Of a DNA stretch of 23,282 nucleotides, positions 6,801-23,282 are shown one piece after another. The DNA is from a virus (Duplodnaviria > Heunggongvirae > Uroviricota > Caudoviricetes): IMG/VR virus record IMGVR_UViG_2859799533_000007; one strand, 5' to 3'. The notes under the pieces were generated by a model, which did not search any database, was not told the DNA's origin, and saw only the letters and a list, made by a program, of their open reading frames with translations. Position 1 is the stretch's first letter, and each line of letters opens with the position of its first letter. Position numbers and translations under genes: made by a program.

Positions 6801-7292
6801 CAGGAACTGTGAGGTGGTCTTGCCGTTAATGGTGACGTCCTTTTCCGTCACCCAGCGGCCATTACGCTGTAACTGAATCAGAATCCGGACAGAGGAAGGA
6901 TTACGGTCGCCCTTTGACGTGGTCTGCACCAGTGACTGCACCCCGAAGGTAACCCGCAGGCGGTCAATGTTCGCGGACGTAATGGTGCGCGTCACCGGTT
7001 TTGCCTTCGTCACTTCCACGCCCAGTCCGGTTTCAGCTCCGGAGGACTCAAAGCCTTCCGGTGGTGTCTGCTCCTGCTCCCCGGCGCGCCAGACCGCCGT
7101 CACACCGTGTATCACGGGATTGCCGTCCGTGTCCGTCAGTGGGGTTTTGTTCACCAGAATACTCTGCAGTCCCTTCACCGGACCTTCTATCGGTCCCTCA
7201 CCAATCGCATCAATCACACTCATCATCTGCGTGGATTTGAGATTATCCTTCGCCTCACGAGGCGTGTGTGCCTTACCGCCACCTTTTCCCAT
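3819..7292 (-). CDS. J: Tail tip / host specificity protein J (central tail fibre)
   Basis: Long similarity to lambda J from [22 protein letters not shown]… onward. Start placed at the ATG at 7292, preceded by GGGGAAGG; the ORF-track extension to 7505 is a non-coding upstream read-through. About 1157 aa. Confidence 0.9.
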
Positions 7293-7392
7293 ACAGCCTT
7301 CCCCTGAATAAATTAACCGCCACTTGCCATTCCGTACAGAAGTCGGATATCCTTCGCCTGAAAAGCATGAAACACATTTCTGCCATGCTAAA

Positions 7393-7428
7393 GAAAACCC
7401 CGGTATCAGCAGATACCGGGGTTTTCTT
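7393..7428. terminator. Perfect 14-bp-stem hairpin flanked by A- and T-runs (bidirectional terminator-like)
   Basis: AAAGAAAACCCCGGTATC-AGCA-GATACCGGGGTTTTCTTT, located in the enlarged I-J intergenic region. Confidence 0.7.
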
Positions 7429-7496
7429 TCATGCCCACCGATAATCCTGTTGGTTAAAACCGGTAATGGCATAAAAATTCTGAATATCTTCACATT

Positions 7497-7524
7497 TTCA
7501 CACACTGACTGTGGCGCTTATAAT
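7497..7524 (+). promoter_or_regulatory. Sigma70-like promoter (TTCACA, 16-bp spacer, TATAAT), antisense to the tail operon
   Basis: -35 at 7497-7502 (5/6 to TTGACA) and a perfect -10 at 7519-7524, in an AT-rich intergenic insert. Confidence 0.5.
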
Positions 7525-7530
7525 TTCGCT

Positions 7531-7628
7531 GCGTTAGTGTTTTTTTGCCCGAGTAACAAAAACAACTCCTTCACATTGATCTTCATTTGTCTGTCCCCGC
7601 AGCTCCGCGATCACTGCGGGATTTTTTT
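7531..7628 (+). ncRNA. Candidate ~100-nt small RNA (promoter to terminator, no convincing ORF)
   Basis: Bounded by the promoter at 7497-7524 and a plus-strand terminator (stem CCCGCAG/CTGCGGG at 7596-7620, then T7 at 7622-7628). No ATG-initiated ORF inside. Prediction only. Confidence 0.35.
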
Positions 7629-7633
7629 ATGTT

Positions 7634-8305
7634 TTATCCCTGTCGCCCGATAACCACGACCTTTCCGCCCCCGCCTTCATCACGGGTGCTGATGTCCTGG
7701 GATATACGGCGGGAGCCAACCAGCATTTCCCCGTAAGGCACCGGCATCGGGTTCCCCTGGGCAATCATGTTATCCAGCGAGGAAAAGTACGTGTTCTGTC
7801 TGCCGTTATCCGTTGCGCGGTAATCCGGTGTTTTTGCCTTCGGGGCCAGCATCTGGGCCACACCGCCCAGAATCATGCTGGCTCCAAGTGAAAACAGCAT
7901 CGTGGTGGCAGAAAAACCACCGGCTGCCAGGGCTGAACCCCATAACGCCATTGATGCCCCGGCAGTGAAGAAAGAGCCCACGATGGCTGCCGCCCCCAAC
8001 ACAATCTGCAGTCCACCCTTTCCGGCCCCGGCCAGTCGCGGCACAATGTGGATGACCGTTCCCTCACCCAGCTGTTCGTGAAGACGGGCATACACCGCCT
8101 CCGGTGCCGTGTCATCACCGGCAATACGTATCTGGTACCAGCCTTCGTTCATCTGACGGCGAAAGCCCGGCATCTGCATCGACAGGGCGCGAATGGCTTC
8201 CGCTGCCGTGTTCACATACAGGCTGAGGCGGCGGCCAAATCGTTGCAAATCCCCGTGAAGGCAGATGGTGAAGCAGCTCACCGTTGCCGCAGTAAATGGT
8301 GGCAT
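7634..8305 (-). CDS. I: Tail assembly protein I
   Basis: …CLHGDLQRFGRRLSLYVNTAAEAIRALSMQMPGF…IHIVPRLAGAGKGG… resembles lambda I. Start chosen at the Met at 8305 (223 aa, as in lambda); the longer track ORF is read-through of the K overlap. Confidence 0.85.
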   Translation of the reverse strand: MPPFTAATVSCFTICLHGDLQRFGRRLSLYVNTAAEAIRALSMQMPGFRRQMNEGWYQIRIAGDDTAPEAVYARLHEQLGEGTVIHIVPRLAGAGKGGLQIVLGAAAIVGSFFTAGASMALWGSALAAGGFSATTMLFSLGASMILGGVAQMLAPKAKTPDYRATDNGRQNTYFSSLDNMIAQGNPMPVPYGEMLVGSRRISQDISTRDEGGGGKVVVIGRQG

Positions 8306-8864
8306 GGTTCGGTACCGAAGCACCAAAGCAGCACAGCAGAATATCGCCCGGCTGTGCAGAGGACAGGGGCACCCGGTAAAAGCCGGTGACCGCCATATTG
8401 TCCAGGTACAGGTTCTGGCCGTTGCGCCACCAGTCATCCTCGCGATGAAAATCCGGCATATCAATTCCCGCCAGATGGTATGCATCCCGGAACAGCGTGT
8501 AACAGTCCGTCACCCCGTGCTCAAAGCGCCGTCCTGTCAGATGTGGCACACAGCGGAATTTATGAATTTCCCCCCGGCAGACCAGCCACCAGGGCAGTGC
8601 GCTTTTTATCTGCAGCCGCCGGTCAGCCTCGCTCAGCCAGGGCAGCTCACCGGGATGACTGTGGACCAGTGCCACAATCTCCCCCTGCATCTCTGCCCGC
8701 AGCCAGTCTTCCGGTGCGATACGAAAATACGCCTCCGGCTCTGCAGAAATATTCACACAAGGGATATACCGCTCCCCCTCCGGCGTGCTTATCACGAAGC
8801 CGCACGACTCCGCAGGCGCACACCGCCGGGCATGCGCCAGAATCGCTGATTCAGTCTGTGTCAT
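8115..8864 (-). CDS. K: Tail assembly protein K (MPN/JAB plus NlpC/P60 domains)
   Basis: MTQTESAILAHARRCAPAESCGFV…HSHPGELPWLSEADRR…GVTDCYTLFRDAYHLAGI… Start ATG at 8864. The C-terminal ~45 residues look non-native and overlap I by ~190 bp, so the 3' end is uncertain. Confidence 0.8.
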   Translation of the reverse strand: MTQTESAILAHARRCAPAESCGFVISTPEGERYIPCVNISAEPEAYFRIAPEDWLRAEMQGEIVALVHSHPGELPWLSEADRRLQIKSALPWWLVCRGEIHKFRCVPHLTGRRFEHGVTDCYTLFRDAYHLAGIDMPDFHREDDWWRNGQNLYLDNMAVTGFYRVPLSSAQPGDILLCCFGASVPNHATIYCGNGELLHHLPSRGFATIWPPPQPVCEHGSGSHSRPVDADAGLSPSDERRLVPDTYCR

Positions 8865-8874
8865 AAACCGGGAT

Positions 8875-9573
8875 TTACTGCGAAAGTTTATTAATGGAAA
8901 GGAAACCGCCAAAATTGCCGACATTCCTGCGCAGTTCACACCCGCGCATGCACTTGCTGCATCTGTCCTTACGGATATCCGTGGTGGGTTTATCGAACTC
9001 ATCCGCCACAGCCCCGCCCGTGTAACCACACTCATCAGAGCGGTAGGTCCACATACAGGTGTTCGCCAGCATGATACGACCGGGAAACAGCGCCCCGTCC
9101 GTCTCGGTCGGTGTAGCCAGCACAAACGAGGCCGTCATGGCTGTCAGCTGCGACATCTGCTCCACCACCCAGCGGTCACTCAGCTCCTGCTCCGGGTCCG
9201 CCTCCGGATTGCCCGCAACGAAATTCACCGCATCCAGAAAACGGGCATACACCCGGCGGCGGACCACCGTGGCCCCCACCAGACTCTGCAGGTCTTCCGC
9301 CATCCCGGTGACCAGACCGAACAGATTGGACACCGTCAGCGACGGTCTGGCACTGCTGCCCCGGCCGTTCATCTCAAAGCCGCTGCCGTCAATCGGGTAT
9401 GCCTCATACTTACGCCCCTGCCAGGTGACCGGCTCCCCTTTTTCATTCAGCTCATTACAGAAAAAATACCGCTCACCACCCTGCACCGTCAGGTCGATTT
9501 CCCAGAGTACCACCCGCGGTGACTGCTCTGACTTAACCGACTCGTTCAGCCTTTCTTCGCGAATATCCTGCAT
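8875..9573 (-). CDS. L: Minor tail protein L
   Basis: 232-aa ORF MQDIREERLNESVKSEQSPRVVLWEIDLT… with the C-terminal Cys cluster typical of lambda L; start overlaps the M stop (ATGA). Confidence 0.9.
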   Translation of the reverse strand: MQDIREERLNESVKSEQSPRVVLWEIDLTVQGGERYFFCNELNEKGEPVTWQGRKYEAYPIDGSGFEMNGRGSSARPSLTVSNLFGLVTGMAEDLQSLVGATVVRRRVYARFLDAVNFVAGNPEADPEQELSDRWVVEQMSQLTAMTASFVLATPTETDGALFPGRIMLANTCMWTYRSDECGYTGGAVADEFDKPTTDIRKDRCSKCMRGCELRRNVGNFGGFLSINKLSQ

Positions 9574-9902
9574 CAGTTCACCACCTGCTTAAACTCCGCG
9601 CTGAACTCAACGCGCAACATCCCGACCCGCGCAGACCACCCGGCACAGGTCACCTTTATCTGCCGGTATGCATAAGGCGGTGTCCACAGAAACGCCTTCC
9701 AGCCACCGTGCTCTGCCAGGAATTCCTCCAGATGCCGGGCTTCCTCCCGGGTCACGGAAAGCGTCACCCGGTATGTTTTCAGGTCAGCACTCAGCCCTGC
9801 CGCCATACGCTGCGAATAGCCGTCACCAAAACGCACTTCACGCACCGATGGCCGCGAGTTCACCTCCATATCCGGTTTCACTTTCCAGCGAAAGGTTTTC
9901 AT
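9573..9902 (-). CDS. M: Minor tail protein M
   Basis: 109-aa ORF MKTFRWKVKPDMEVNSRPSVREVRFGDGYSQR…, same length and position as lambda M. Confidence 0.9.
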   Translation of the reverse strand: MKTFRWKVKPDMEVNSRPSVREVRFGDGYSQRMAAGLSADLKTYRVTLSVTREEARHLEEFLAEHGGWKAFLWTPPYAYRQIKVTCAGWSARVGMLRVEFSAEFKQVVN

Positions 9903-12509
9903 CGCCCGCTCCCCGATAACAGACCGCCATCACGCAACTGCAGCCGGAGCTCATCCTGCGCACCTTTACGGGCCATCTCATACACCGCTTTCATCAGCTG
10001 CGGCCCTGCCTGCCCGTTGGGGCCGTCGTTCTGAATCACCACGTGATTGTTCTGATTAAAATTAATGCCTTCGGCCCGCCGCATCTGCGCCGGACTTCCG
10101 GCACCGCCGACATAACCACCTTCCGCATACCCGCGCATCAGACGATACAGGTTGCCGACACCAATCCGGCTGGTCGCCTCCTTCGTGAAGACAAACTCCC
10201 CGCGATGGACAATCCCCGCAGGCTCATATTTGCCGCCCGTCCCGTAAATCCTCCGGTCGCGAAATGGAAGTTCGCCGCCGCAGCCTGAATGGCCGTCCCC
10301 GTGGAAGCGGATGCGCCACCACCGAAAGCACCACCAATGGCGCTGCCGATACGCCCGACAATCCCCACCATCGCCTGCTTCAGAAAAATCTCTGTCAGCA
10401 TGGAGAGCACGGAACGGGTGAAACCACGCCAGTTCTGTTCGCTGCCGGTCAGCATCGCCGCCATATTCTGTGCAATACCGTCAAAGGTCTGCGTGGCCAC
10501 ACTTTTTACCTGCGAAAAACTGTCCGTCGCACTTTCCGCCCACTCGCCCCAGCCGGACTTCATCCCGGCCATCCAGCTTCCACGAAGCTGCTCCTCCGCA
10601 GACCAGGTGTTCTTCAGTGCAGATGTGGCCTTCGCCAGCGCAGCCGGATTATCACCGTACACCTCACGAAGGCGCTGCTCTTCCGACTCCCGCTGCGCCT
10701 GACGGTCGGTGAGTCCGCGGGCTTTTGCGCTGATTGCCGCCTGCTTCGCGCTCTGCTGCTGTTCAAACCGCGCCGCCTGCTGTGCCAGCTCATTCAGCCG
10801 CTTCTGGTGTTCAATCTTGTCTCCCAGCTCAGCCAGCTGGCGTTTGTACTCCAGCGTCTCTTTCTCATGAGCCAGCAGGGATTTTTCCTGCCAGGATAAC
10901 TGCCGTTTCGTGGCAGCCTCTTTCAGGACCGCATACTGACTTTCCGCCTTCCATAAATCACGGCGCTGCCGGCTGATTTTCTCATTCGCACCGCTGTGTT
11001 TTTCCAGCGTCCTGAGCTCAGCTTCAAGGGCAAGCAGAGCCTCTCTTGCCTGCTCCTCTTCCCTCTCCCCGGCAGAGCGCGTTTTCGGTGATGTATGCTT
11101 TTTACCTGTCAGCTCTTCAGCCAGACGGCTGACGGCTTCCTGCTGCCCAAGACCTTTGCTGACGCCTGTTGCACGCGAGCGGTTGATGTACCCCATTTCC
11201 CCCTGGCGTATACGCGCATCCCGTTCCGCAATGGATTTTCTCAGCGCCAGTTCATCGCGTTTTGTTTTCTCAATAAATACGCGGTTCTCTTCTGCCAGTT
11301 CACCAAACAACGCACCAACGCCGGGCACATTCTTTGTCGTTTCCCAGGCTGACTGAATAAATTCAGCCAGTGCCAGATCCCCTGCACAAGCAGCAGCTTC
11401 ACCTGTTCAACGGTTCCGGCCACCACGTCAGTGATCAGACTGAGTGCCCCCAGTGTATGATCACCTATCCATGCCCATGCGTCAGAAGTCCAGGTTTTAA
11501 CATCGTCCCAGATTTTTTCCACCGGCGTGGCCGCTTTATCAAGTTGCTCCAGACGTGCATTCATGACATCCGCAAACAGGGACATCGCCTCCGTCACCGC
11601 AGCCTGTTTACCTTTCGTGCGCTCAAGCTCATCAATATGGCGTAACTGGGAAACGCTCAGGAAGTTATACTGCTGATTCAGGGAGGCCAGCGCCTTCACC
11701 GGATCTGCTGCAATCCCTTCAAAGGCTTTTTCCACCTTCCCGGCATCGTCCCCCACCGTCTGCAGCCATCTCTGAGAGGTTTCCCCCATGATCCGTAGCT
11801 GCCCGGCGGTATATTTCCCGCTTTCTGCCAGACGGGCCAGATTTTCTGCCGCCTGTCTGATACCACCACCGGCTTCATCGCTGATCACCCCGGCCATTTT
11901 CCACAATTCTGCCGTTGTGGTGGCAGCCGCCCCTCCGGTCAGGATCAGTGAACGCAATAAGGCCCGGTCAGCCTGCTCTGCCTGCCAGGCGGCGGCAGCA
12001 AGCACGGCCAGTACGGCAACCCCGCCACCTGCCGCCACACGGACCACCGACATAAATCGTCCCAGCTCACCGGCATTCCGGGCATTTTCAGCCAGTGCAT
12101 TTGCCGTATCTGACAGCGACTCCTCTGATGATTCAGAGGCATCCCTGATCCCGAGAAGTTCCTCCTTCAGCAGGGTAAGCAGGCTGAGCGGTTCACCGAA
12201 TGAATCGCTGATCTGCCCCCCCTGCTGCAGCATGATAAGGAAGGGATTCTGACCACCGGCAAGCTGAGTGACAATATCCGTGAACTGTGCGGGCAGTGTG
12301 CGCATGGCAGCCTTATACTGTCCGACTCATATCCCGGCTTTTTGTGCAGCCAGCGCCTGTCGGCTCAGCCCCTGTTCAACAGTACTGGCGGTTTTTCTGG
12401 CATCCGCCTCCAGACTGGAAAAATGACGGCGTACCCGGGCCATCTGTTCATCAAACCGGGCCGCATCCAGACTCAAATCAATAACCAGATCACCCGCTGG
12501 CTGGGACAT
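9899..12509 (-). pseudogene. H: Tail tape measure protein H, disrupted by one in-frame stop and two frameshifts
   Basis: N-terminus MSQPAGDLVIDLSLDAARFDEQMARVRRHF… is H-like, then an in-frame TGA at 12327-12329. Reading continues in the same frame to ~11390, shifts frame near the C4 run 11389-11392, and shifts again at the C3 run 10241-10243 before the H-like C-terminus …QNNHVVIQNDGPNGQAGPQLMKAVYEMARKG…. Confidence 0.85.
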
Positions 12510-12903
12510 ATCTCACACCTCCGGAAATCCCCGCTGAAGCCATCATTAATGCAACATCATCCTCGCTGACATCCACCACATTCGCAGAAGGTGAAATATC
12601 GCGCCCTCCGTCCCCTCCGAACCGGACGCCTCCGGCAACTCCTGTCGCTTTCTGCATCAGCATTTCTTCCTCGTCCGGCATCTCCGTCTGCTCTTCCTCA
12701 CACGCTGGAGCAAGCAGACTGAAATCCGCCGGATGCATATCCGGATCGCCAAAAAACAGGCTGAGTACGGCGTACATCAGCCCGGAAAAATGAGCGTCCA
12801 GTTGGGTATCCTGAAAATAATGCGTGCAGTAAAAACGTCGCCAGTCGGCATATTCGGTGGATGTCATCCCGGCAAGCATGGCGCGCCAGTCGGGTCTCCC
12901 CAT
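12490..12903 (-). CDS. T: Tail assembly chaperone T domain (normally made only as the G-T frameshift fusion)
   Basis: …RPDWRAMLAGMTSTEYADWRRFY… followed by an acidic stretch and GGVRF/GGVRYV motifs; its stop lies 17 nt after the H start codon, a lambda-like overlap. The frame is open upstream to 12927. Confidence 0.75.
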   Translation of the reverse strand: MGRPDWRAMLAGMTSTEYADWRRFYCTHYFQDTQLDAHFSGLMYAVLSLFFGDPDMHPADFSLLAPACEEEQTEMPDEEEMLMQKATGVAGGVRFGGDGGRDISPSANVVDVSEDDVALMMASAGISGGVRYVPASG

Positions 12904-13321
12904 CTCTCGCGCCAGTTTCAGGACAAGTTACCGGCTCAGTCGCTTCTGCTTTCCCGGTTTGTTCAGGATCGGCATCGTGCCGGTTATCCAGCATACCTGA
13001 AAGATAAAGCACCCGGTTCGTTGCCTGATTCAGTGCATCAGCAGGCCATCCCAGCATCACTTCACGGCGGATCTGCTGCATCTCTGTCTCCGGAGAGGCC
13101 AGAGTGCCTTTGAGGGAATGGGTATGCCATAGCGACATCGCCACAAGCAGGGATGCCGTTTCCAGATATCGCTGGTTAATGTGCACGACATCATGCTTCG
13201 TTGTCTCCTGTTGTTCTGCGTCTGAAACAAACTTTATATAATCAAACCGCTGCAGCGCAGACAATTCGGAAAGCGTGACAGACACACCGTTATATTCAAA
13301 TTGTTCTGTTTTCAGAAACAT
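12698..13321 (-). CDS. G: Tail assembly chaperone G; N-terminal ~125 aa G-like, 3' extension probably spurious
   Basis: MFLKTEQFEYNGVSVTLSELSALQR… resembles lambda G. The ORF is 207 aa (lambda G is 140 aa); the part beyond the GGGAAAG heptamer is Arg/Cys-rich and looks like an out-of-frame reading of the T region. Confidence 0.6.
   Translation of the reverse strand: MFLKTEQFEYNGVSVTLSELSALQRFDYIKFVSDAEQQETTKHDVVHINQRYLETASLLVAMSLWHTHSLKGTLASPETEMQQIRREVMLGWPADALNQATNRVLYLSGMLDNRHDADPEQTGKAEATEPVTCPETGARDGETRLARHACRDDIHRICRLATFLLHALFSGYPTGRSFFRADVRRTQPVFWRSGYASGGFQSACSSV
12949..12955 (-). promoter_or_regulatory. GGGAAAG slippery heptamer (putative G-T -1 frameshift site)
   Basis: Plus-strand CTTTCCC at 12949-12955. 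In the frame that reads it as G GGA AAG a TAA follows 7 codons later (12928-12930), lambda-like, but that frame is neither the N-terminal G frame nor a -1 partner of the T frame. Confidence 0.5.
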
Positions 13322-13334
13322 GTATTACCTCCGT

Positions 13335-14087
13335 TTACCCTGCAGCGCCCGCTTCAGTAACGGTGACTTCAGCCACTGCGGCGAACTGACCATTTCCGCT
13401 CACCACAAGGATCTGCACCTTACCTGTCGCCACGCCGTTTACCGTAATTGTCATATCTTTCACACTAATGGTGGCTTTCGACGGATCGGCGGAAACCGCT
13501 CTGAACGTCTTGTCGGTTGCACTTTCCGGCTCAAAAGAAACCGTCAGGGTGGTTGTTTTCCCTTTTGCCACCGTACCGGATGTCGGCGTCACCTTAATCG
13601 CACTGACCGGCGTAATTTTGCTGCGTTCTTCCGCTACAGAAGGTTTACCCACGTTAGTGACTTTCACCGTGCGGGTGATCACTTCTTTCGCCGTCACGGC
13701 CTTACCGATACTGCTGACCCAGCCACGAAACACATCCACCGTGCCATTCGGAAAACGGATTTTATAGGCCCGGACATCGCCGCTTTCAAACCAGCCTATA
13801 AGCCCTTTCTGGCCTTCCTCTCCCGGTTTCCAGGCCAGCGTAAAACTGGTATCACCTGCAGATTTCTGCCCCTGCCCGGTCGCGTTCCAGTCCGCGTCTT
13901 CATCATCCAGGTAGTTATCATCGTAGGATTCTGCCGTCATCTCGCCCGGCGTCAGATCCTTCACCTTAGCCAGTCGCTGCCAGTCATCGTCTGACAACGG
14001 GTTTGCATAAGCATCACCCTTGCCGTTGTAAACCCACAGAGTGGTACCGGCACCTTTTACCGGCTCAAGGGGATTTGGTGTTGCCAT
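13335..14087 (-). CDS. V: Major tail protein V with C-terminal Ig-like domain
   Basis: 250-aa [67 protein letters not shown]…; Thr/Val-rich C-terminal beta domain. Confidence 0.9.
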
Positions 14088-14094
14088 ATCGTCC

Positions 14095-14490
14095 TCACAT
14101 CTCGTATGTAATGGAATAAGTCAGATCTGCAGAACTCCATAACGCCATATCGTCATCACGACGATACTCATAGCCCTGCGTAACCATCGTGGTAATCAGT
14201 CCTGCCAGTGCCGGGATCGCAGTCATCGCCGGGTAAATCCGGCTTTCCATCCACTGATCAAGCTCTGAATCCGGTACCTGTGCCGGTAAAAACACCTCAA
14301 TATGCAGCGTGGCCCGCCAGGTATCTGCATCCAGCTCTTCACCGGTATACTCTGCATCCGTCAGATAAACCGCGATCGCAGGAAAATCCTCTTCGTCAAA
14401 AACAACGGGGCGACCATCAAACAGCGTCGCCCCGTGTTCATGCTGCTCGAGTGCATCCAGCACTGCGGCACGAATGTCAGTGTGTTTCAT
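14095..14490 (-). CDS. U: Tail terminator protein U
   Basis: 131-aa ORF in the lambda U position and size. Confidence 0.85.
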
Positions 14491-15062
14491 CGTTTTATCG
14501 CAATCCTCAGTTGTTGTTTCAGCGCGTATGCCAGTTCTTTAGGCAGGCGTTCACGCCGGATACGGTCAACATTCTCATCAAATGCCTGTTTCAGTGGGGC
14601 CGCCATCGGGATTTTCACCACCTGAATGGGAAGGCGATTACGCTTTTTCCTTCCCTTGTCGTCATTGCCCTCCTCATATCTGGCCTGGGGAAGACGTTGC
14701 ATAACATGCCAGCGCCCATTATTTAATCGCTGGATAAATGCCCGCTGATAACGATGCTGACCGGCTTTGAGTATGCTGTTCGGACGACGTCCCAGCATTC
14801 TGATCCCCAACTTAATCACAGGGAGATCACCGCGGTTAACGATAATTCTGGCATTCGGATTTCTGACCGTCGCCCGTTTCAGTCTGGACCGTTCCTTTAC
14901 CAGTTTCCGTCTCACCCTGGTTTCCCGGGCAACCTGTGACGAAGACTGATTAATCGCCGTTGTGGCCACGCGGTTAATCGTCATTGCTGAAGCCGCCGGA
15001 ATGGCGTTTTTACGAACCCGGCTCAGATTATCAATCGCCTGATCAAGCCCTTTTATCGCCAT
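14487..15062 (-). CDS. Z: Tail completion protein Z
   Basis: 191-aa ORF in the lambda Z position and size; stop overlaps the U start. Confidence 0.85.
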   Translation of the reverse strand: MAIKGLDQAIDNLSRVRKNAIPAASAMTINRVATTAINQSSSQVARETRVRRKLVKERSRLKRATVRNPNARIIVNRGDLPVIKLGIRMLGRRPNSILKAGQHRYQRAFIQRLNNGRWHVMQRLPQARYEEGNDDKGRKKRNRLPIQVVKIPMAAPLKQAFDENVDRIRRERLPKELAYALKQQLRIAIKR

Positions 15063-15077
15063 AATTTCACCCTGCGT

Positions 15078-15431
15078 TTATCGTCGCCGGTTAACAGCGG
15101 GTGGTTGCCCACGGTTGAGCCAGAGATAACAGCTTCCCCCGTCATCCGGAGAAATACGATCCACCCAGAACATCTCGCCGTTAATGGTCAGCGTGTCACC
15201 ACGCCGCACGGCACGCACCGTATCCGTCCGCACAAATAATGACGGGCTGCTTCCTTCAATACGGACCCCGCCACCGGCAAAACCCAGCGACTCCGGATCG
15301 TCAAAAACCCCCTGAACTTCGCTTCCACGCTGTGCTCCCGAGGTGAACTGCGCACAGAGCCCCATCACTTCAACAATCGTGCTGTCCACCCCGGCAAGGG
15401 CAGCATCAAAGGCATTCTGAAAATCACGCAT
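15078..15431 (-). CDS. FII: Head-tail joining protein FII
   Basis: 117-aa ORF, same length and position as lambda FII. Confidence 0.85.
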   Translation of the reverse strand: MRDFQNAFDAALAGVDSTIVEVMGLCAQFTSGAQRGSEVQGVFDDPESLGFAGGGVRIEGSSPSLFVRTDTVRAVRRGDTLTINGEMFWVDRISPDDGGSCYLWLNRGQPPAVNRRR

Positions 15432-15807
15432 GCTCAGCCGTTCCGTGCTGTATCATGGCTGTCGCCAGTGGTGATGGCACCATAACACGCATGCCCCGGT
15501 ACGTCAGTTCAACGGGACGGCCTGTCTCCGGGCAATACCCCATCACATGCAGGCATTTCCGCACACGGACCGCTTTAACATCATCCGTAGCATCCGTGTT
15601 GTTCAACTGCTCACCATCGTCTGTGTGATTTTGATCAGCCCCGCTCTCATCAGAGTGCATAATGCCCTCCGGGGAAACAGCAAGCTCCTCTTCCCACTCA
15701 GACACACGTTGAGCAATATCCGCAGCACTCCCCGACATATCCGCCTCGCGCCCCAGCAGGCCAGCCAGTTGACGAAGACGATTCAGATTTTCTTCTTTTG
15801 TTGCCAT
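15424..15807 (-). CDS. FI: DNA packaging / head assembly protein FI
   Basis: Start placed at the ATG at 15807, preceded by AGGAGG (MATKEENLNRLRQLAGLL…); acidic central region; lambda FI position. Confidence 0.8.
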   Translation of the reverse strand: MATKEENLNRLRQLAGLLGREADMSGSAADIAQRVSEWEEELAVSPEGIMHSDESGADQNHTDDGEQLNNTDATDDVKAVRVRKCLHVMGYCPETGRPVELTYRGMRVMVPSPLATAMIQHGTAEHA

Positions 15808-15858
15808 CTCAGCCTCCTGTGAAAAAAGACACGGGGGCATTTCGCCCCCGCTCACGGA

Positions 15859-16887
15859 TTATTTCACCTGTACCACCACAAACTCATCCGGATCCGGCAG
15901 CACCATCAGCGGTGCGGACTGCGTCATGGTGAATTCACGGGCCGGATCGCCCACAGTCAGCCAGTGTTTCGGATAACGGGAAGAGGCCACCACACCTTCG
16001 GACAACGCCTGCGCATCCTGAATGGCACCATAGCAACGAATGCCCTCTGCTGCCGTATTCCCCAGGACCAGTGTGCCCTCCGGCAGATAACGTTTTTCGG
16101 TACCGTCCTCTGCCACATAAGACGTTTTCGCCACCACAATGGCCAGATCGCCGTAATACCCCTTGAAGGACACCACCGCCCCCAGGTCTTTCACTGCCGT
16201 TTCGAGTTGTGAATTTGAGCCGCGACGGGTATCCAGTTTTTCGCGGAACAGCTTAAAGCCATTCAGCAGACGCCAGACCGTACCGTCCATAATGGCGATA
16301 TTCACAAGGCCGCTGGCCTGATCGCAGTAGAGGTCAATATCATGCGTCGGATCAAACGTATCACGGTCCTGCTCAGACCATTTTTTACCGTCAGCCTGCT
16401 CAATGTTATTTCCTTCAGAGCGCCCGAAATCCACCTCGACAGTATCAAACTGATCCCCTTCCATGGTGTATTTGCCATACAGCACGGCATTCACCGCCTG
16501 CATTTCTTCCACCTGGACAATGGCGTGCTCTTCCTGTTTGAGGTTATCGGTAATGATACGCAGACGACGGTAGGCCGGGTCGTTCAGCTGAGCCGGATCT
16601 TCACCAGGAAGGCGCTCAACCGCCTGCTGGTAATTAAATTCGTGTTTGGGCTTGACGTAGCCCGGACGTAACACGCGGGTTTCACCACCGCGATGGCGAA
16701 GCACTTTTCCTTCAACGATCGGGGAGACATAGGCCGCCACCGGCGTTTTTCCGGTAATTTTGTCCAGCATCACCTCTTCGGTGTGGAAATTCACCGTACG
16801 GCGGAAAAACAGCTCCAGAAACAGCGCACGGAATTTCACTTTTTGTTCGGTATAACCGAGTAACTGGCGGGTCGTAAACAATCCCAT
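15859..16887 (-). CDS. E: Major capsid protein E
   Basis: 342-aa ORF with extensive similarity to lambda E (…YVSPIV.G.V.R.RGG…PGYVKPKHE…DTRRGSNS.LETAVKDLG…GDPAREFTM.QSAPLM…). Confidence 0.93.
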   Translation of the reverse strand: MGLFTTRQLLGYTEQKVKFRALFLELFFRRTVNFHTEEVMLDKITGKTPVAAYVSPIVEGKVLRHRGGETRVLRPGYVKPKHEFNYQQAVERLPGEDPAQLNDPAYRRLRIITDNLKQEEHAIVQVEEMQAVNAVLYGKYTMEGDQFDTVEVDFGRSEGNNIEQADGKKWSEQDRDTFDPTHDIDLYCDQASGLVNIAIMDGTVWRLLNGFKLFREKLDTRRGSNSQLETAVKDLGAVVSFKGYYGDLAIVVAKTSYVAEDGTEKRYLPEGTLVLGNTAAEGIRCYGAIQDAQALSEGVVASSRYPKHWLTVGDPAREFTMTQSAPLMVLPDPDEFVVVQVK

Positions 16888-16944
16888 AAATCAGTTCCTT
16901 TCATTAAGAAATCAGTCAGGCCAACGCGGTGGCCTGATAACGTG

Positions 16945-17292
16945 TTACGGCAGCGCCGCGTGACTCAGGGCTGTGCCGGCAAAGGCATTTGCCTTTTTGT
17001 GTTCATCCCCACTGTCAGGCCAGCGGATTGCCTCCGTCGCAAAGGTCCCCGACTTGTAATAGGTCAGCACCGTCTCTGTGCCTTCAAGCGGCAGTACCAG
17101 TATGCCAACCGCACTACCGGCTTTCTGTCCATCCCAGACCACCAGTTTCCCGGTGGCTTCATCCAGCATCAGGGGCGTCAGAGCCGGTGTTGCCGAGGAA
17201 ATCCCGCTGCTGCCTGTGGCGGTGTGAGCCGGATCATTACCGGCAAAAATACGTACTTCCGCACGCTGTTCAGTGATGGTTTTCGTCACCAT
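16945..17292 (-). CDS. D: Head decoration protein D
   Basis: 115-aa ORF …NDPAHTATGSSG…TPLMLDEATGKLVVWDG…AVGILV…TYYKSGTF… resembles lambda D. Confidence 0.9.
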   Translation of the reverse strand: MVTKTITEQRAEVRIFAGNDPAHTATGSSGISSATPALTPLMLDEATGKLVVWDGQKAGSAVGILVLPLEGTETVLTYYKSGTFATEAIRWPDSGDEHKKANAFAGTALSHAALP

Positions 17293-17328
17293 TTTGTTAA
17301 AACCTCATATTGATGGTCAGCACTGACT

Positions 17329-18833
17329 TCATGGCATGGCCATGAGCATTTTCACGTCCGCATCACCGTCTGCTGACGTCTGTGACACGCCACCCCGCAC
17401 CGCTGCCGGTGAATGATTCGCCATGAAATGTTCAAACAGGGCGGTTGTGGATGCAGAGACCGGTTCGGCCTTACCTGATCCCGCAGCCAGCACCGCCCGG
17501 GCGTTCTCCACGGTCATTCCCGGGCAGGCCGCCAGTTTTTCAGCCTGCGCTTCTGCCCCTTTTGCCTCATCCAGGGCCATGATCTGATCACGAAGTGAGG
17601 GCCCGGCATCCGCCAGTGGTGCAGCCGCCAGGATCGGGCGGGCTTTTTCCACCGTCATCTCCGGCATCGCCGCCAGCGTTGCCGCCAGTTGTTCACGACC
17701 GTTCGCTTCTTCACACGCCATAATGCGATCGGCTTCACTCTGCGCGGATGCCACCGGCTGCTGCGGTGCCGCCGCGGCCAGAATCGCCCGGGCCTGTTCA
17801 ACGCTCATGCCCTGTTGCCCTGCCAGCATCGTGGCAAGCTGTTCACGTCCTTTCGCTTCCTGGCATGTCAGGATCCCCATCACTCGCTGGTTCTCCTGCA
17901 CGGCGGCTTCCGTTGCAGTTAATTGCGGCATAGTGCCTCCTCTGACATTACTGTTCAGCGCCGTGGCCATCACACTGATGGCATCCGACGCATTGATTAA
18001 TTCATCCGCCAGCCCGGCCTCAATGCCGGACTGACCTTCAAAAACAGCGGCCTCTGTTCCCGTGACTGCATCAACAGACAGACCGGTAAACATCGCCACT
18101 TTTTCGGCAAACATCCGGCGCGCCGCATCAATCCGCTGCTGCATGTCCTGGCGAACCTCTGCCGGCAACGCTTCAAACTGATTGCCATCCACCTTGTGCG
18201 CCCCTGAGTAAATCAGCGTGATATCCACACCGGCCTGCGCCAGATGACCGGCATAGCTGACATGGCTCATCATCACGCCAATGGAACCGATACGGGATGT
18301 CTGGGTAACCAGCCGTCGGGAGCAGGCCGACGCCAGCAGCATGGCCGCAGAACAGGCCGTGTCATTACACAGTGCCCAGACCGGCTTCTGCTGCCGGAGG
18401 CGGTAAATCATGTCAGCGCAGTCAAACACGCCGGCGGCCTGCCCGCCCGGACTGTCAATGTCCAGCAGTATGCCCCGCACCTGGCTATCTGCCATTGCCT
18501 GCTGAAGACAGGTGACAATGCCGTCATAGCCAGTCATTCCGGAAAATGGCCGCATCCCCCCAGCCGGTGCACCAGCGTGCCGGTCACCGGCAGTACCGCA
18601 ATACCGTTCACCACCCGGTAAACACGGGCCGGTCGTTTACCTCCGGCCATGTACTCGTCCGTTTCAGCCAGCATCCCGGGAGCATCAAGCTGTACCTGCT
18701 GTTGCGGTACCGAAAGACTTGCTGCCCCCATCTCGCGCCCCAGCGCGCAAAAGAAAACCCGCGCATAGGCGGGCTCCAGAAGCAGCGGTTCATTGAATGC
18801 TGCTGCAATAATGTGTGAAAGATTACGTCTCAC
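17329..18833 (-). pseudogene. C: Head maturation protease C with nested scaffold Nu3 (S49/ClpP-like), frameshifted
   Basis: N-terminal segment (…AAFNEPLLLEPAYARVFFCAL…) is in a different frame from the rest (…SGMTGYDGIVTCLQQA…KPVWALCNDTACSAA…). The frames join at the C6 run at 18556-18561. Confidence 0.85.
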
Positions 18834-19595
18834 GTGGTGTTGTCTCCTCTTCCGGCCTGCGACTCTCCGCTATCTGCTGCTGATACGCCTGCGCTATCCA
18901 CACCGGACGTGAGAGTCCGGCTTTTTCCCGCTCTGCAGATTCCCTGACCTGCTGGCAGAAAATGTCCTGATAATCCTCGCCCATCAGCGCCAGCTCTTTC
19001 TCATACGTGCTCAGTCCGGCCTCAATGCGCATCACTGATTCCTGAACCTCCTTGAGCCCGTCAATGGCCATTCTTCCGGCTCCAATCCACTCAGCCCGTG
19101 ACCAGGCTGATCGCGCCTGATAAAAATCAAACCGTGCCCGTGGCGGACGAATAATCCCCGAAGAAGTGCCTCTTCCAGCCAGCAGGAAAACATCTGCGTG
19201 GCCAGCCGGGACGCAATAAATTTTCGCCGCCCCATAAAATAGCGCCACGACTCATTGGCGGATGCGCGGGCACTTGAGTAACTGACCTTCGAGTAATCAC
19301 GGGACAACTGTTCGTAGGAAACGCCAAGACCGGCGGCGATATACCGCAGCAGCGCCTGTTCAAGCGCCGAAAATCCATTGTCTGAATCCTGCGCGGTCTG
19401 AAGTTTCAGATCATCACCGGGGAAAAGGTGCGGAATTTTGACACCGCCCAGCATCACGCTATTCGTGTCATACCAGGTGGAGAACTTATCCAGAATATTA
19501 ATAAGCGGATTATCCTTCTGCCCCTGCGGCGCACCGGCGATATATTCAAAGGCCTTTTCGGTATCAAGGTCACTTTCAATCGTCGCTGCATACAT
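18823..19595 (-). pseudogene. B: Portal protein B, 3' half only, with an internal frameshift
   Basis: Two frames carry portal-like sequence and join at the C4 run 19156-19159. Only ~257 codons are present (lambda B is 533 aa); upstream of 19595 the frame reads AT-rich non-coding sequence. Confidence 0.75.
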
Positions 19596-19783
19596 CGCCT
19601 TTATGAAAAGACAGGAAAAAATAAAATTTAAAAACAGTACATTACGAATGCTCAGACCTATCGTTTAAAGGAGTCGCAATACACACTGCAATACACGATT
19701 ATTTATAAGATGAGCGGCATCCGTCATAAAGCTGGTGGATGCTTTTTCTATGCATATATGCACAGTTTTAGTGGGCGTTAATG

Positions 19784-19807
19784 TCGATATAGGGATCCCC
19801 ATATCGA
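19784..19807. repeat. 24-bp near-perfect palindrome TCGATATAGGGATCCCCATATCGA (operator-like)
   Basis: Differs from its reverse complement at one symmetric position pair only. Confidence 0.6.
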
Positions 19808-20025
19808 GATTGGATACCAGGCTTTTTTAATCAGGCTGGTGGGCTTTACCTGTTTTGTATGAGTGGTCATCATGACCATGTCATAACAAAAACCCCATAT
19901 TCGTGGTTTTTCTGTGTCGGGCTATTCTGTCGTTGCTGTGCTGATTTGGCTGGTGGGCTGAATCATCATTACGGCGATGCAGCTATGTAGACGTTCCGGC
20001 CTCCTCAAATTGAGGATTGTGGAAG

Positions 20026-20187
20026 AATCAATGGGTTAGTCTTACTTTCCCGACATCCCCCAATGGGGGGTTTCGAAACAATCAATAGCTTAGGCTTACT
20101 TCCCCGATTTCCTGCATTGCAGGTTTTCGAAATAATCAATGGGTTAGGCCATCGTGCAATTTTGCACTTTGCCAGCCAGCGCAATGT
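20026..20187. repeat. Tandem array of three 54-bp direct repeats, each with an internal GC-rich hairpin
   Basis: Units begin AATCAAT at 20026, 20080 and 20134. Units 1 and 2 share ~40 of 54 positions, with the hairpin arms changed in a compensatory way (CCCCC-AAT-GGGGG versus CCTGCA-T-TGCAGG); unit 3 diverges after position 15. Confidence 0.7.
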
Positions 20188-20397
20188 CGCGTTATCAGTC
20201 CTCAGATGTGAGGGATGTAGCCAGCTTTTCCCCCAGTGGGGGATATCCAGCACCGACGGCTTAACTGTGCGTGCCAGCACAAGGTAGCCTTGAACTACTT
20301 ACTGCATCCCATCTTACAGGCCGTGCCTTCCTGCTTAACTTTTTGCAATGCAACAAGTCAGCCAGCGCAATTTTGCGTTATCGGGAATATCAGCAAG

Positions 20398-20679
20398 TTA
20401 CCGCCGCAATCGTTCCGGCTTCTTCCACTGGTAAGTATTTTTCGCGCTCTCCCTCCGTTGTTGAGAACGGCGACGATATGCCAGCAACTCAAGGACTCTT
20501 GTTCGTATGTTGCGCATATCCACGCCGTTAAGCTCAATACCGTCACGGCGCATCACCTCAGCCACTACACGCACATAATTATCTGCGGTCACGCTGTCCG
20601 GCTGCGTGGCCTGTTCGTCATGCTGCTTGCTGATTCCACAAGCACGGCGGATTAATCGCAGTATTTCGGATTCAGTCAT
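20398..20679 (-). CDS. Hypothetical small basic protein (93 aa)
   Basis: ATG-initiated ORF with coherent charged composition (MTESEILRLIRRACGISKQHDEQ…); weak RBS; I do not recognise a homologue. Confidence 0.4.
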   Translation of the reverse strand: MTESEILRLIRRACGISKQHDEQATQPDSVTADNYVRVVAEVMRRDGIELNGVDMRNIRTRVLELLAYRRRSQQRRESAKNTYQWKKPERLRR

Positions 20680-20803
20680 AGCGTACTACGTTACTTATCT
20701 TTATTCGGCTGCAACTTATCCGGTACGTTTCCGGCAGTTTCCATCAGATAATCGGACAGCTGAGGTGTACTGGCAATAGCGGACACTACCATTTGTTCTT
20801 TTT

Positions 20804-21622
20804 TTAAGCAGCCATCTGATGATATTTTTCCCTGAAGGCTGCCGGGGAGATATTCCCCAGACGAGAGTGACGACGCTGACGATTGTAGAAAATCTCAATG
20901 TATTCCCGTATTACTGAGATGGCTTCATCCCGGTTATTAAAACGATAGTGGCTCAGGCTCTCATTTTTCAGCGTTCCCCAGAAGCTTTCCATCGGAGCGT
21001 TGTCGTAACACTGACCTTTACGCGACATTGATGTTTTCAGACCAGACTGCTCCTGTATGACCCGGTAATCGTATGCGCAGTACTGTGAACCTCGATCAGA
21101 GTGGTGGATTAGCCCGGCAGGTGGGCGCTGGCTCCTGAGCGCCATAAACAGGGCTTTACCTGTCAGCTCTTTTGTCATGCGCTCTCCCATGGCGTAGCCG
21201 ACAATTTCGCACGTATAAACATCTTTGATGCCAGCGAGGTACAACCATCCCTCCTGTGTGGCAACATACGTCAGGTACGCCACCCAGACCTGATTTGGTG
21301 CTGTAGGAGCGAACGTCTGGTTCAGCAGATTTGGCGCAACTGGCAGATTGTGGTTCGGGTTCGTAGTCGCTCTGAACTTGCGTTTCTGCTTACAGCGTAG
21401 CCTTAGCTCCTTACGAAGACGTGCCAGTCGGTCACGACCAACGATGATGCCATTCTCTGCCAGCTCCGTCTGGAGCCGCCGGGTTCCATATGTTTCGCGA
21501 GTGCGGATATGTGCCACCTTAATCTCCAGTTTTAGCCGCTCATCACTTTGTTTTCTGTCTGAGGGTTCATGCTGTACCCAGTTGTAATAACCGCTCCTGG
21601 ATACACCAAATACCTGACACAT
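20804..21622 (-). CDS. IS3-family transposase OrfB (DDE domain)
   Basis: 272-aa ORF …HHSDRGSQYCAYDYRVIQEQSGLKTSMSRKGQCYDNAPMESFWGTLKNE…; the frame is open upstream toward the frameshift window. Confidence 0.9.
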   Translation of the reverse strand: MCQVFGVSRSGYYNWVQHEPSDRKQSDERLKLEIKVAHIRTRETYGTRRLQTELAENGIIVGRDRLARLRKELRLRCKQKRKFRATTNPNHNLPVAPNLLNQTFAPTAPNQVWVAYLTYVATQEGWLYLAGIKDVYTCEIVGYAMGERMTKELTGKALFMALRSQRPPAGLIHHSDRGSQYCAYDYRVIQEQSGLKTSMSRKGQCYDNAPMESFWGTLKNESLSHYRFNNRDEAISVIREYIEIFYNRQRRHSRLGNISPAAFREKYHQMAA

Positions 21623-21657
21623 CGCTTCAATGGGAAATTGTTGTCGCCATTGTTCGA

Positions 21658-21960
21658 TTAACGCGTATTTTTCAGCGACTCCTGTGCAAAATACGCTGTT
21701 GCTTTTTTTAATATATCTCGCTCAAGGCGAGCTTCATTTAACGCCTTACGCAGTTGCAGAATTTCAGATTCCAGTTCAGCCACCGTGCGGGAACCAGGAG
21801 TACCGAGCCCTTTTCTGGCGGCGGTAACCCATTGTCCTAAAGTGCCTTCAGGAAGGGATAATCGGGAAGCGCCTTCACTGATCGAAAGTTGATTTTCAAG
21901 AACCGTTCTGACAGCTTCGGCTTTGAACTCTTTAGAGTAACGTTGGTTTTTTCTGCTCAT
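21658..21960 (-). CDS. IS3-family transposase OrfA (helix-turn-helix plus leucine zipper)
   Basis: 100-aa ORF MSRKNQRYSKEFKAEAVRTVLENQLSISEGASRLSLPEGTLGQWV…; an A7G slippery run (plus-strand T7 at 21703-21709) sits near its 3' end. Confidence 0.9.
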   Translation of the reverse strand: MSRKNQRYSKEFKAEAVRTVLENQLSISEGASRLSLPEGTLGQWVTAARKGLGTPGSRTVAELESEILQLRKALNEARLERDILKKATAYFAQESLKNTR

Positions 21961-22115
21961 TATTAGCTCCTTCTGATGCCATTCTATTTCAGGAAGGAGT
22001 GTCCGTTAAACTCAGGCTACCTCAATCAGCGCCAGTCAGTCAGCCGGAGCAAAAACAGAAGCCCCACTCATTCCGGAACAACCTTCTTAATAACCCATTT
22101 CAACGAGAAAATCCT

Positions 22116-22385
22116 ATGTCAGAAATAAAATCGCTGGTCACTGCTGAGGCAGTGAAGGAAGTCCTGCGCTCTGAAGAAGTCCGGAGCGCACTGAAACAGC
22201 AACTTCGGCAGAACCTTGAGGCGCGTCTTGATGCAGAAGTGGATTCAATTCTGGATGAACTGCTGGGCGCACCGACTGTTCCGGAGCCGGAAGGCATTGC
22301 GGATGACAGTGCTGTTTCAGATGGCGTCGGGTCTCAGCCTGACGGTAGTGAAGGGCCTCAGCCTGACGGCGAAATGATGATGTAA
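22116..22385 (+). CDS. Hypothetical acidic protein (89 aa) upstream of the holin
   Basis: ATG at 22116 within the longer track ORF; MSEIKSLVTAEAVKEVLRSEEVRSALKQQLRQNLEARLD… with an acidic C-terminus; weak RBS. Confidence 0.45.
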   Translation: MSEIKSLVTAEAVKEVLRSEEVRSALKQQLRQNLEARLDAEVDSILDELLGAPTVPEPEGIADDSAVSDGVGSQPDGSEGPQPDGEMMM

Positions 22386-22460
22386 CCATGCGCAGGGGGT
22401 GTCGGTGTGAGCTGATGCCCCACTTGTTGTTGTGAGCTTCCGGATTGCGGGAGACGGGGT

Positions 22461-22620
22461 ATGTACCAGATGGAAAAAATCACAACAGGTGTGTCATACA
22501 CCCGTCAGCGGTGGGAACGGGCTACTGGTTCCTGCAGTTGCTGGACAGGGTTTCCCCGTCTCAGTGGGCGGCAATAGGCGTACTGGGGAGTCTGCTGTTT
22601 GGGCTGCTGACATATCTGAC
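22461..22620 (+). pseudogene. Class II holin (phage 21 / Stx-phage S-type), frameshifted and cut by an IS element
   Basis: [14 protein letters not shown] in one frame continues as [39 protein letters not shown] in another; the shift is at the C3 run 22501-22503. The dual-start MYQM motif and transmembrane core are typical; the C-terminus is replaced by IS sequence from 22621. Confidence 0.75.

Positions 22621-23282
<662 letters not shown>

What the first reader, a model, noticed from the sequence alone, without database searches (positions are those of the whole stretch)
10241..22503. All five frameshifts in phage genes are single-base contractions of G/C homopolymers
H (C4 at 11389-11392 and C3 at 10241-10243), C (C6 at 18556-18561), B (C4 at 19156-19159) and the holin (C3 at 22501-22503) each regain a continuous homologous reading if one G/C is added to the run. 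Five of five in the same direction and context is the signature of homopolymer under-calling in sequencing. It could instead be genuine slipped-strand decay of a cryptic prophage. The two explanations have opposite consequences for whether this module was recently functional.
Basis: seen in the sequence. Interest (0 to 1): 0.6.

Follow-up and report, generated by a model that had tools for sequence, protein, structure and literature searches.

The report
Homopolymer sequencing errors in dead prophage
Four of the five "frameshifts" are almost certainly one-base sequencing errors from an unpolished long-read Shigella genome, lying inside a lambda-like prophage that was already dead from larger, real lesions, so the finding is ordinary.

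Summary
The window is 100% identical to GenBank CP026866.1. That accession falls inside a block of unpolished PacBio Shigella genomes that a published study set aside because of "numerous indels in the homopolymers".

The same cryptic lambda-like prophage occurs in nine other assemblies. At 10241, 11379, 18556 and 19156 the window's C-run is one base shorter than in its closest relative, in the S. boydii CDC 3083-94 genome and in a draft assembly. Adding one C at each site restores H, C and the B remnant.

A short-read-type contig is identical to the window over 1881 nt, including a private stop codon in H. Its only difference is C5 instead of C4 at 11379. The protein fragments created by the 10241, 11379 and 19156 shifts occur only in complete genomes of this accession block.

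The fifth site, in the holin, is different. A lone A is missing, exactly at the edge of an IS66-family target duplication seen in sister strains. It is probably a real excision scar.

The prophage is dead in any case. Terminase and half the portal are gone, the portal being cut by a satellite remnant and IS600. A 31-nt deletion removes the G/T slip site, a 91-nt deletion frameshifts K, and H carries a real nonsense codon.

The parts
9899..12509 (-). Tape-measure gene H, split in this record into 60 + 354 + 352 + 79 aa pieces
   Evidence: tblastn with the intact E. coli H gives three frames plus one in-frame stop. Sister assemblies aa.
10241..10243 (-). C3 run (G3 on the coding strand), one base shorter than C4 in all 9 sister assemblies. 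Judged a consensus under-call.
   Evidence: The resulting 79-aa and 352-aa fragments exist only in CP026866.1.
11379..11382 (-). C4 run, one base shorter than C5 in all 9 sisters and in an otherwise identical Logan contig. Judged an under-call.
12327..12329 (-). Real nonsense codon in H (TGA, where relatives have TCA Ser61), private to this strain's lineage
   Evidence: It is present in Logan contig ERR200282_622, a contig shared by 4 samples.
12927..12928 (-). Junction of a real 31-nt deletion that removes the in-phase slip site A AAA AAG and the stop codon of G. G becomes 207 aa and T moves to the +1 frame.
   Evidence: The 207-aa product is on 109 contigs in 142 blocks, including S. boydii CDC 3083-94.
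17329..18833 (-). Head protease/scaffold gene C, split into 99 + 402 aa
18556..18561 (-). C6 run. Six sisters have C7, one has C8, and two others from the same set also have C6. E. coli relatives read A+C6 or ACCGCCC. Probably an under-call, but a real C7/C6 polymorphism is not excluded.
18823..19601 (-). C-terminal remnant of portal gene B (residues about 270-530), split into 187 + 82 aa
19156..19159 (-). C4 run. Six sisters have C5, and three scattered assemblies of the same block share C4. Judged an under-call.
   Evidence: The 187-aa fragment is found on only 4 contigs, all complete genomes of the same accession block.
19602..20760 (-). Last 1159 nt of a helper-embedded PICI-type satellite integrated in the portal gene. 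It comprises a hairpin-rich non-coding stretch, a 93-aa ORF and the start of a small-terminase gene. The att core CATA(C/A)ATCGCCTT lies at the junction.
   Evidence: The class is described in PMC10111431.
20761..22024 (-). IS600 (1264 bp). It cuts off the satellite remnant and abuts an inverted lysis-gene fragment.
22461..22628 (+). Class II (S21-type) holin remnant, on the strand opposite to the head and tail genes, truncated by IS911
22495..22503 (+). CATACACC|C. A lone A is missing between 22502 and 22503. CATACACC is the 8-bp target duplication of a 4025-nt IS66-family composite present at this spot in sister strains.
22629..23282 (-). IS911 (partial, runs off the window)
8259..8267 (-). 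Retained copy of the AGGCAGATG repeat that marks a real 91-nt frameshifting deletion in tail gene K

Best explanation
The window is part of GenBank CP026866.1. This is a Shigella chromosome, probably S. boydii, from an accession block that holds long-read-only PacBio genomes never polished with short reads.

The four single-C deficits at 10241, 11379, 18556 and 19156 are consensus under-calls of G/C homopolymers. The true run lengths are most likely C4, C5, C7 and C5. With those lengths, H (apart from a real stop codon), C and the B remnant read through.

The fifth site, in the holin, is a different and probably real event. A lone A was lost exactly where an IS66-family composite element sits in the closest relatives, which fits a near-precise excision scar.

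All five sites lie in a lambda-like prophage remnant that real lesions, fixed in this Shigella lineage, had already inactivated.

Shown: sequence identity to CP026866.1, the run-length comparison, the private or incoherent distribution of the contractions, and the independent contig at 11379. Inferred: that CP026866.1 belongs to the published PacBio set (from accession adjacency), and that the error arose at base-calling or consensus.
For: 1. The window is 100% identical to CP026866.1 over 20,585 nt.
2. Nine other assemblies carry the same remnant, with the same 31-nt G/T deletion. In 13.8 kb, every indel difference is a length change in a homopolymer run, of one base in all but one case (L004 has two extra C at 18562). 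One compensated pair in L012 is excluded. Eighteen sites are G/C runs and one is a T run, although A/T runs of 4 or more (125) outnumber G/C runs of 4 or more (83).
3. There are 29 contraction calls, all in 6 of the 8 assemblies of this set (seven CP0267xx-CP0268xx records plus PTES01). CP001063.1 (S. boydii CDC 3083-94) and AMJS01 have none.
4. SNPs polarised with E. coli outgroups make L008 (CP026867.1) the window's sister. L008 has the longer run at all four sites. The window's terminal branch therefore carries 4 indels against 1 non-IS substitution.
5. The contractions at 18556 and 19156 recur in assemblies that are not each other's relatives. All four gamete combinations occur, so the pattern is phylogenetically incoherent.
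6. Logan contig ERR200282_622 (1881 nt, 4 samples) equals the window, including the private TGA in H. It differs only by C5 at 11379.
7. The 352-aa and 79-aa H fragments occur only in CP026866.1. The 187-aa B fragment occurs only on 4 complete genomes of the block. The 207-aa marker of the same prophage is in 142 blocks.
8. CP026832 is cited as a PacBio genome of Kim et al. 2018, and CP026795 is S. boydii ATCC BAA-1247. Yassine et al. [quoted passage not shown] The rows read from their table show 29-288 cgMLST allele differences between PacBio and Illumina genomes of identical strains.
9. PacBio RS II assemblies carry systematic single-base G/C homopolymer deletions (ARAMIS, PMC8574707).
Against: - No reads were available, so the run lengths in this very strain were not observed directly.
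- Membership of CP026866.1 in the Kim et al. set rests on accession adjacency. The paper itself is not held and no text lists this accession.
- The prophage is under no selection, so real frameshifts could accumulate, and G/C runs are natural slippage hot-spots.
- The C6 state at 18556 also appears in a Logan assembly of an unrelated run (ERR15561417) and in one 10-20 kb contig. That site may be genuinely polymorphic.
- The sequencing platforms of ERR200282, ERR15561417 and AMJS01 were not verified.
Confidence: 0.88

Rival explanations
1. All five are genuine slipped-strand or deletion mutations that accumulated in a cryptic prophage released from selection.
For: The prophage is demonstrably decaying. 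It has a real nonsense codon in H, 31-nt and 91-nt deletions, IS600 and IS911 insertions, and has lost the terminase genes. Homopolymers are natural slippage sites. The C6 allele of the C7 run recurs in a Logan assembly.
Against: The sister genome L008, the CDC 3083-94 genome and the draft AMJS01 all have the longer runs. The contig that shares the window's private nonsense codon has C5 at 11379. Four indels against one substitution on a terminal branch is implausible. The contractions affect only G/C runs, occur only in assemblies of one set, and contradict the SNP tree. The dataset is documented as riddled with homopolymer indels.
Confidence: 0.05
2. Mixed case. The short runs (10241, 11379, 19156) are artefacts, but the C7 run in gene C is a real, recurrently slipping polymorphism, and C6 is the true state in this strain.
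For: C7 is long enough for appreciable slippage in vivo. C6, C7 and C8 are all seen among ten assemblies. C6 also occurs in Logan ERR15561417 on a different SNP background.
Against: The closest relative L008 has C7. The other long contigs that carry the 402-aa C fragment come from the same error-prone set, and the platform of ERR15561417 is unknown.
Confidence: 0.15
3. The holin lesion is also a sequencing artefact, a dropped singleton A, and not a real mutation.
For: The record has a high indel error rate elsewhere. No other assembly with the CATACACC-CGTCAGC junction was found.
Against: Every other indel difference among the ten assemblies, bar one compensated pair in L012, lies in a homopolymer run, and this one does not. 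The missing A sits exactly at the 3' edge of the 8-bp target duplication of an IS66-family composite. That element is present in five sister loci (L004, L005, L006, L008, L009), including the closest relative, and absent here. Such a one-position coincidence is very unlikely for a random error.
Confidence: 0.3

Closest known systems
Systematic single-base G/C homopolymer deletions in PacBio RS II consensus assemblies (ARAMIS study, PMC8574707; noted for the Kim et al. 2018 Shigella genomes by Yassine et al. 2022, PMC8795385)
   Same: One-base deletions confined to short G/C runs (3-7 nt). They recur at particular runs, fragment genes, appear only in long-read-only assemblies, and are absent from the CDC 3083-94 genome, the AMJS01 draft and a short-read-type contig of relatives.
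   Different: Nothing of substance for four sites. The holin site does not fit, because it is a lone A and not a homopolymer.
Defective lambda-like prophage remnants of Shigella, degraded by IS elements
   Same: Lambda gene order J-I-K-L-M-H-T-G-V-U-Z-FII-FI-E-D-C-B, 97-98% identical to E. coli O104:H4 and O145 prophages. The remnant is interrupted by IS600, IS911 and IS1, and the terminase genes are lost.
   Different: The small frameshifts that make it look more decayed than its sisters are mostly not real.
Helper-embedded PICIs that integrate in prophage late genes, including B:Phage_portal_2 sites (Tommasini, Mageeney and Williams 2023, PMC10111431)
   Same: In E. coli CFSAN064035 a roughly 10.4-kb element splits a lambdoid portal gene at a repeated core. 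It carries int, a RepA helicase, capsid, decoration and small-terminase genes. The window carries the same junction.
   Different: Only the last 1159 nt survive here, because IS600 has removed the rest. Which of the published portal sites this is was not determined.

Membership tests
Long-read homopolymer under-call artefact | The difference from the truth is a one-base deletion inside a homopolymer (G/C in mid- or high-GC genomes) | tested here: met
   Four sites: C3, C4, C6 and C4 against C4, C5, C7 and C5 in relatives. This is not met for the holin site, where a lone A is missing.
Long-read homopolymer under-call artefact | Absent from accurate-read assemblies of the same or the closest strains | tested here: met
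   CP001063.1 and AMJS01 have no G/C contractions. Logan ERR200282_622 is identical to the window except for C5 at 11379. The same-strain test was possible only for 11379.
Long-read homopolymer under-call artefact | Errors are assembly-specific and contradict the phylogeny | tested here: met
   Each assembly in the set has its own pattern of contractions (for example 12 in L009, 4 in the window, 0 in L008). The patterns at 18556 and 19156 are four-gamete incompatible.
Long-read homopolymer under-call artefact | The record was assembled from long reads without short-read polishing | tested here: inconclusive
   CP026832 and the 59-strain set are PacBio and 'not edited with short reads'. CP026866 lies in the same accession block, but no held text names it.
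Long-read homopolymer under-call artefact | The read pile-up shows mixed run lengths at the site | not testable with these tools
   No reads are available.
Genuine pseudogenising frameshift (slipped-strand decay) | Inherited by descendants and close relatives, and coherent with the SNP tree | tested here: not met
   The shifts at 10241 and 11379 are unique to this record. Those at 18556 and 19156 are scattered across unrelated assemblies.
Genuine pseudogenising frameshift (slipped-strand decay) | Confirmed by an independent, accurate sequencing method | tested here: not met
   Site 11379 is contradicted by the Logan contig. The other sites were not directly testable in the same strain.
Lambda-like prophage late operon | Collinear homologues of lambda J to B | tested here: met
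   tblastn of 17 annotated E. coli prophage proteins gives 87-100% identity in lambda order.
Lambda-like prophage late operon | Complete and potentially functional: terminase, whole portal, G/GT slip site and intact K | tested here: not met
   Nu1, A, W and B residues 1-269 are absent. A 31-nt deletion removes A AAA AAG, and K has a 91-nt deletion.

The most novel reading that the evidence does not exclude
The holin lesion is a genuine footprint of near-precise excision of a 4-kb IS66-family composite. One copy of the target duplication is kept and the adjacent base is lost. In addition, the C7 run in gene C is a truly slipping polymorphic site among Shigella strains. In that case, two of the five sites record real mutational processes in a decaying prophage.
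Probability: 0.4. Interest if true: 0.2.

Novelty: not a real feature. Interest (0 to 1): 0.1.

Why it matters
The main value is as a caution. The apparent extra decay of this prophage comes from an unpolished long-read record. Pseudogene counts, or inferences about recent functionality, drawn from CP026866.1 and its sister records would be inflated. The window shows about one homopolymer error per 5 kb. That is in line with the 29-288 cgMLST allele discrepancies in the published comparison of PacBio and Illumina genomes of identical strains. The real biology here consists of known kinds of event: IS-driven erosion of a Shigella prophage, loss of the G/T slip site, and a remnant of a portal-embedded satellite.

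Tried and rejected
- E. coli complete genomes hold no copy of the window. The best match is 97.9% identity over 71%, so the source had to be found through exact-protein look-up.
- I first took GGGAAAG (12949-12955) for the G/T slip site. It is out of phase, and the -1 frame hits a stop just after it. The real in-phase site, A AAA AAG, lies inside the deleted 31 nt.
- Microhomology-mediated excision does not reproduce the holin junction. Recombination between the duplicated CATACACC copies would restore the A. Joining on the flanking C/G bases would remove 2 nt, not 1. This comes from manual inspection of the sequences.
- The frameshifted 38-aa holin product is not on record. The 30-nt junction pattern is absent from GTDB representative genomes. 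The holin site therefore has no independent confirmation.
- Literature searches for CP026866 and its assembly number found nothing. The Kim et al. 2018 announcement is not held.
- Rfam found nothing in the window, including the hairpin-rich 19990-20280 stretch.
- The three housekeeping genes just right of the window (zinT, msrQ, msrP) are intact in this record. The stretch is too short to test the error rate: about 0.65 errors would be expected.
Full report
**What the window is**

The minus strand carries a lambda-like late operon in lambda order: J, I, K, L, M, H, T, G, V, U, Z, FII, FI, E, D, C and the 3' part of B. It is 97-98% identical to prophages of E. coli O104:H4 and O145. No complete E. 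coli genome holds the window itself. The right end carries IS600 and IS911, and the left end carries IS1.

An exact look-up of the aberrant 207-aa G product (12698-13321) showed that the window is 100% identical over 20,585 nt to GenBank CP026866.1, assembly GCA_002949955.1. The same protein is named from Shigella boydii CDC 3083-94 and is found on 109 contigs in 142 blocks.

**Checking the observation**

The second H site is misplaced: 11389-11392 reads AGCA, and the C4 run is at 11379-11382. Adding one C at each of the four runs gives H of 870 aa, C of 501 aa and a continuous 257-aa B remnant. These differ from the S. boydii CDC 3083-94 proteins by 2, 2 and 0 residues. G/C runs of 3 or more hold 7.5% of the bases, so four of four random deletions landing there has P of about 3e-5.

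The holin site is different. The gene is on the plus strand. All intact homologues read ACC-A-CG, so a lone A is missing and its loss creates the CCC.

- a TGA stop in H at 12327-12329, where relatives have TCA (Ser61);
- a 31-nt deletion at 12927/12928;
- a 91-nt deletion in K between AGGCAGATG repeats, at about 8259.

**Artefact or real: comparison with the same prophage elsewhere**

Nine other assemblies (L004-L012) carry the same remnant. I compared them with the window over 8259-22024.

- *Type of difference.* Every indel difference is a length change in a homopolymer run, of one base in all but one case (L004 has two extra C at 18562). One compensated pair in L012 is excluded. Eighteen variable sites are G/C runs and one is a T run, although A/T runs of 4 or more (125) outnumber G/C runs of 4 or more (83).
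- *State at the four sites.* The window is the short one at 10241 and 11379 against 9 of 9 sisters. At 18556 it has C6, against C7 in six sisters and C8 in one. At 19156 it has C4, against C5 in six.
- *Other assemblies of the set.* The other CP0267xx-CP0268xx and PTES01 assemblies carry their own contractions at other runs: 12 in L009, 6 in L010, 4 in L006, and none in L008.
- *Assemblies outside the set.* CP001063.1 (S. boydii CDC 3083-94) and the draft AMJS01 have no G/C contraction.
- *Closest relative.* SNPs polarised with the E. coli outgroups make L008 (CP026867.1) the window's sister, through derived states at 11371, 12004 and 17494. L008 has the longer run at all four sites. The window's terminal branch would therefore carry four indels against a single non-IS substitution.
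- *Phylogenetic coherence.* The shared short states at 18556 (window, L009, L010) and 19156 (window, L006, L009, L011) show all four gamete combinations and contradict the SNP groupings.

**Independent accurate data**

The single private substitution is the H nonsense codon, and it is real. Logan contig ERR200282_622 (1881 nt, found in 4 samples) is identical to window 10990-12869 including the TGA. Its only difference is C5 instead of C4 at 11379.

The 352-aa and 79-aa H fragments created by the two H frameshifts are on record only in CP026866.1. The 187-aa B fragment is on only four contigs, all complete genomes of the same accession block.

The 402-aa C fragment is on five contigs, including a Logan assembly of an unrelated run, ERR15561417, on a different SNP background. 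The C7 run may therefore be genuinely variable, and I hold that site less firmly than the others.

**Provenance**

- CP026795 is S. boydii ATCC BAA-1247.
- CP026832 is cited as a PacBio genome from Kim et al. [quoted passage not shown]
- Neighbouring accessions are other Shigella strains, mostly with old strain designations or culture-collection numbers.
- Yassine et al. [quoted passage not shown] The rows read from their table show 29 to 288 cgMLST allele differences between PacBio and Illumina genomes of identical strains.
- The ARAMIS study documents systematic single-base G/C homopolymer deletions in PacBio RS II assemblies, even at high coverage.

That CP026866.1 belongs to this set is inferred from the accession block. 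The announcement itself is not held.

**The holin site**

In sister loci L004, L005, L006, L008 and L009, the holin sequence breaks off after CATACACC into an IS66-family end. L008 is the closest relative. In CP026797.1, where both junctions are visible, a 4025-nt IS66-family composite sits there with the 8-bp target duplication CATACACC. Its right junction reads CATACACC-ACGTCAGC, so the A is present.

The window lacks the element, keeps one CATACACC copy, and lacks exactly the next base. The window is nested among IS-bearing relatives, so its lineage most likely lost the element. The missing A is best read as a near-precise excision scar. No independent assembly with this junction was found, so this remains an inference.

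The module is dead whichever way the five sites are read.

- *Portal and terminase.* B stops at 19601/19602, at the att junction of a helper-embedded PICI-type satellite. In E. coli CFSAN064035 the whole roughly 10.4-kb element splits a lambdoid portal gene, with the core CATA(C/A)ATCGCCTT at both ends. Such elements, including B:Phage_portal_2 sites, are published. Here IS600 has removed all but the satellite's last 1159 nt, together with the 5' half of B and the W, A and Nu1 genes.
- *Tail chaperones G and GT.* The 31-nt deletion removes the in-phase slip site A AAA AAG and the G stop codon, and leaves T in the +1 frame.
- *Tail gene K.* K is frameshifted by the 91-nt deletion.
- *Spread.* The sister assemblies examined share these lesions, including the CDC 3083-94 genome.

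**Verdict**

Four of the five sites are assembly artefacts: about 0.9 confidence for 10241, 11379 and 19156, and about 0.8 for 18556. The fifth is a different, probably real lesion. None of them bears on whether the prophage was recently functional. This is a data-quality finding already implied by the literature, so it is of low interest.

Noticed in passing
window 19601-20760: The portal gene B is cut at an att junction (core CATA(C/A)ATCGCCTT) of a helper-embedded PICI-type satellite. The intact roughly 10.4-kb element splits a lambdoid portal gene in E. coli CFSAN064035 (L052). It carries int, HTH, Bro-N, Icd-like, RepA helicase, SSB, major capsid, decoration and small-terminase genes and a 93-aa ORF. 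Only the last 1159 nt remain here. The class is published (PMC10111431).
   Followed up: partly
window 12927-12928: A 31-nt deletion removes the in-phase -1 slip site A AAA AAG and the stop codon of tail chaperone gene G. G becomes a 207-aa aberrant protein and T falls into the +1 frame. The lesion is shared by all sister assemblies examined and is on 109 contigs in total. The nearby GGGAAAG (12949-12955) is out of phase and is not the slip site.
   Followed up: yes
window 12327-12329: A TGA nonsense codon in H (Ser61 in relatives) is private to this strain's lineage. It is confirmed in Logan contig ERR200282_622, so it is a real mutation.
   Followed up: yes
window 8259-8267: A 91-nt frameshifting deletion in tail gene K lies between two AGGCAGATG repeats. 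It replaces the last roughly 43 residues of K, and K now overlaps I by 100 nt.
   Followed up: yes
window 22495-22503; L048 4980-9021: The lone A missing from the holin lies exactly at the 3' edge of the 8-bp target duplication (CATACACC) of a 4025-nt IS66-family composite (IS66-type element plus an IS110-family transposase gene) that sits here in sister strains. It is a possible near-precise excision scar, and no microhomology explains the junction.
   Followed up: partly
window 21999-22628 versus 3819-19601: The DUF826 gene and the holin remnant lie on the plus strand, opposite to the head and tail genes, directly after IS600. In L007 and L010-L012 the same IS600 end abuts a TonB-dependent receptor gene instead. 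This points to IS600-mediated inversion or rearrangement.
   Followed up: partly
window 19990-20280: This non-coding stretch of the satellite remnant is rich in G/C-run hairpins (CCCCCAATGGGGGG, CCTGCATTGCAGG, CCCCCAGTGGGGG). Rfam gives no match. Several sister assemblies have their own homopolymer contractions here.
   Followed up: no
window 7389-7422 (I-J intergenic region): The closest relative L008 differs here by replacement of about 34 nt with about 10 nt. I did not examine it further.
   Followed up: no
window 20799-20805: The T7 run just after the IS600 orfB stop is T6 in CP001063.1 only. Two E. coli IS600 copies examined (L013, L014) also have T7. This is the single non-G/C indel difference found.
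   Followed up: partly
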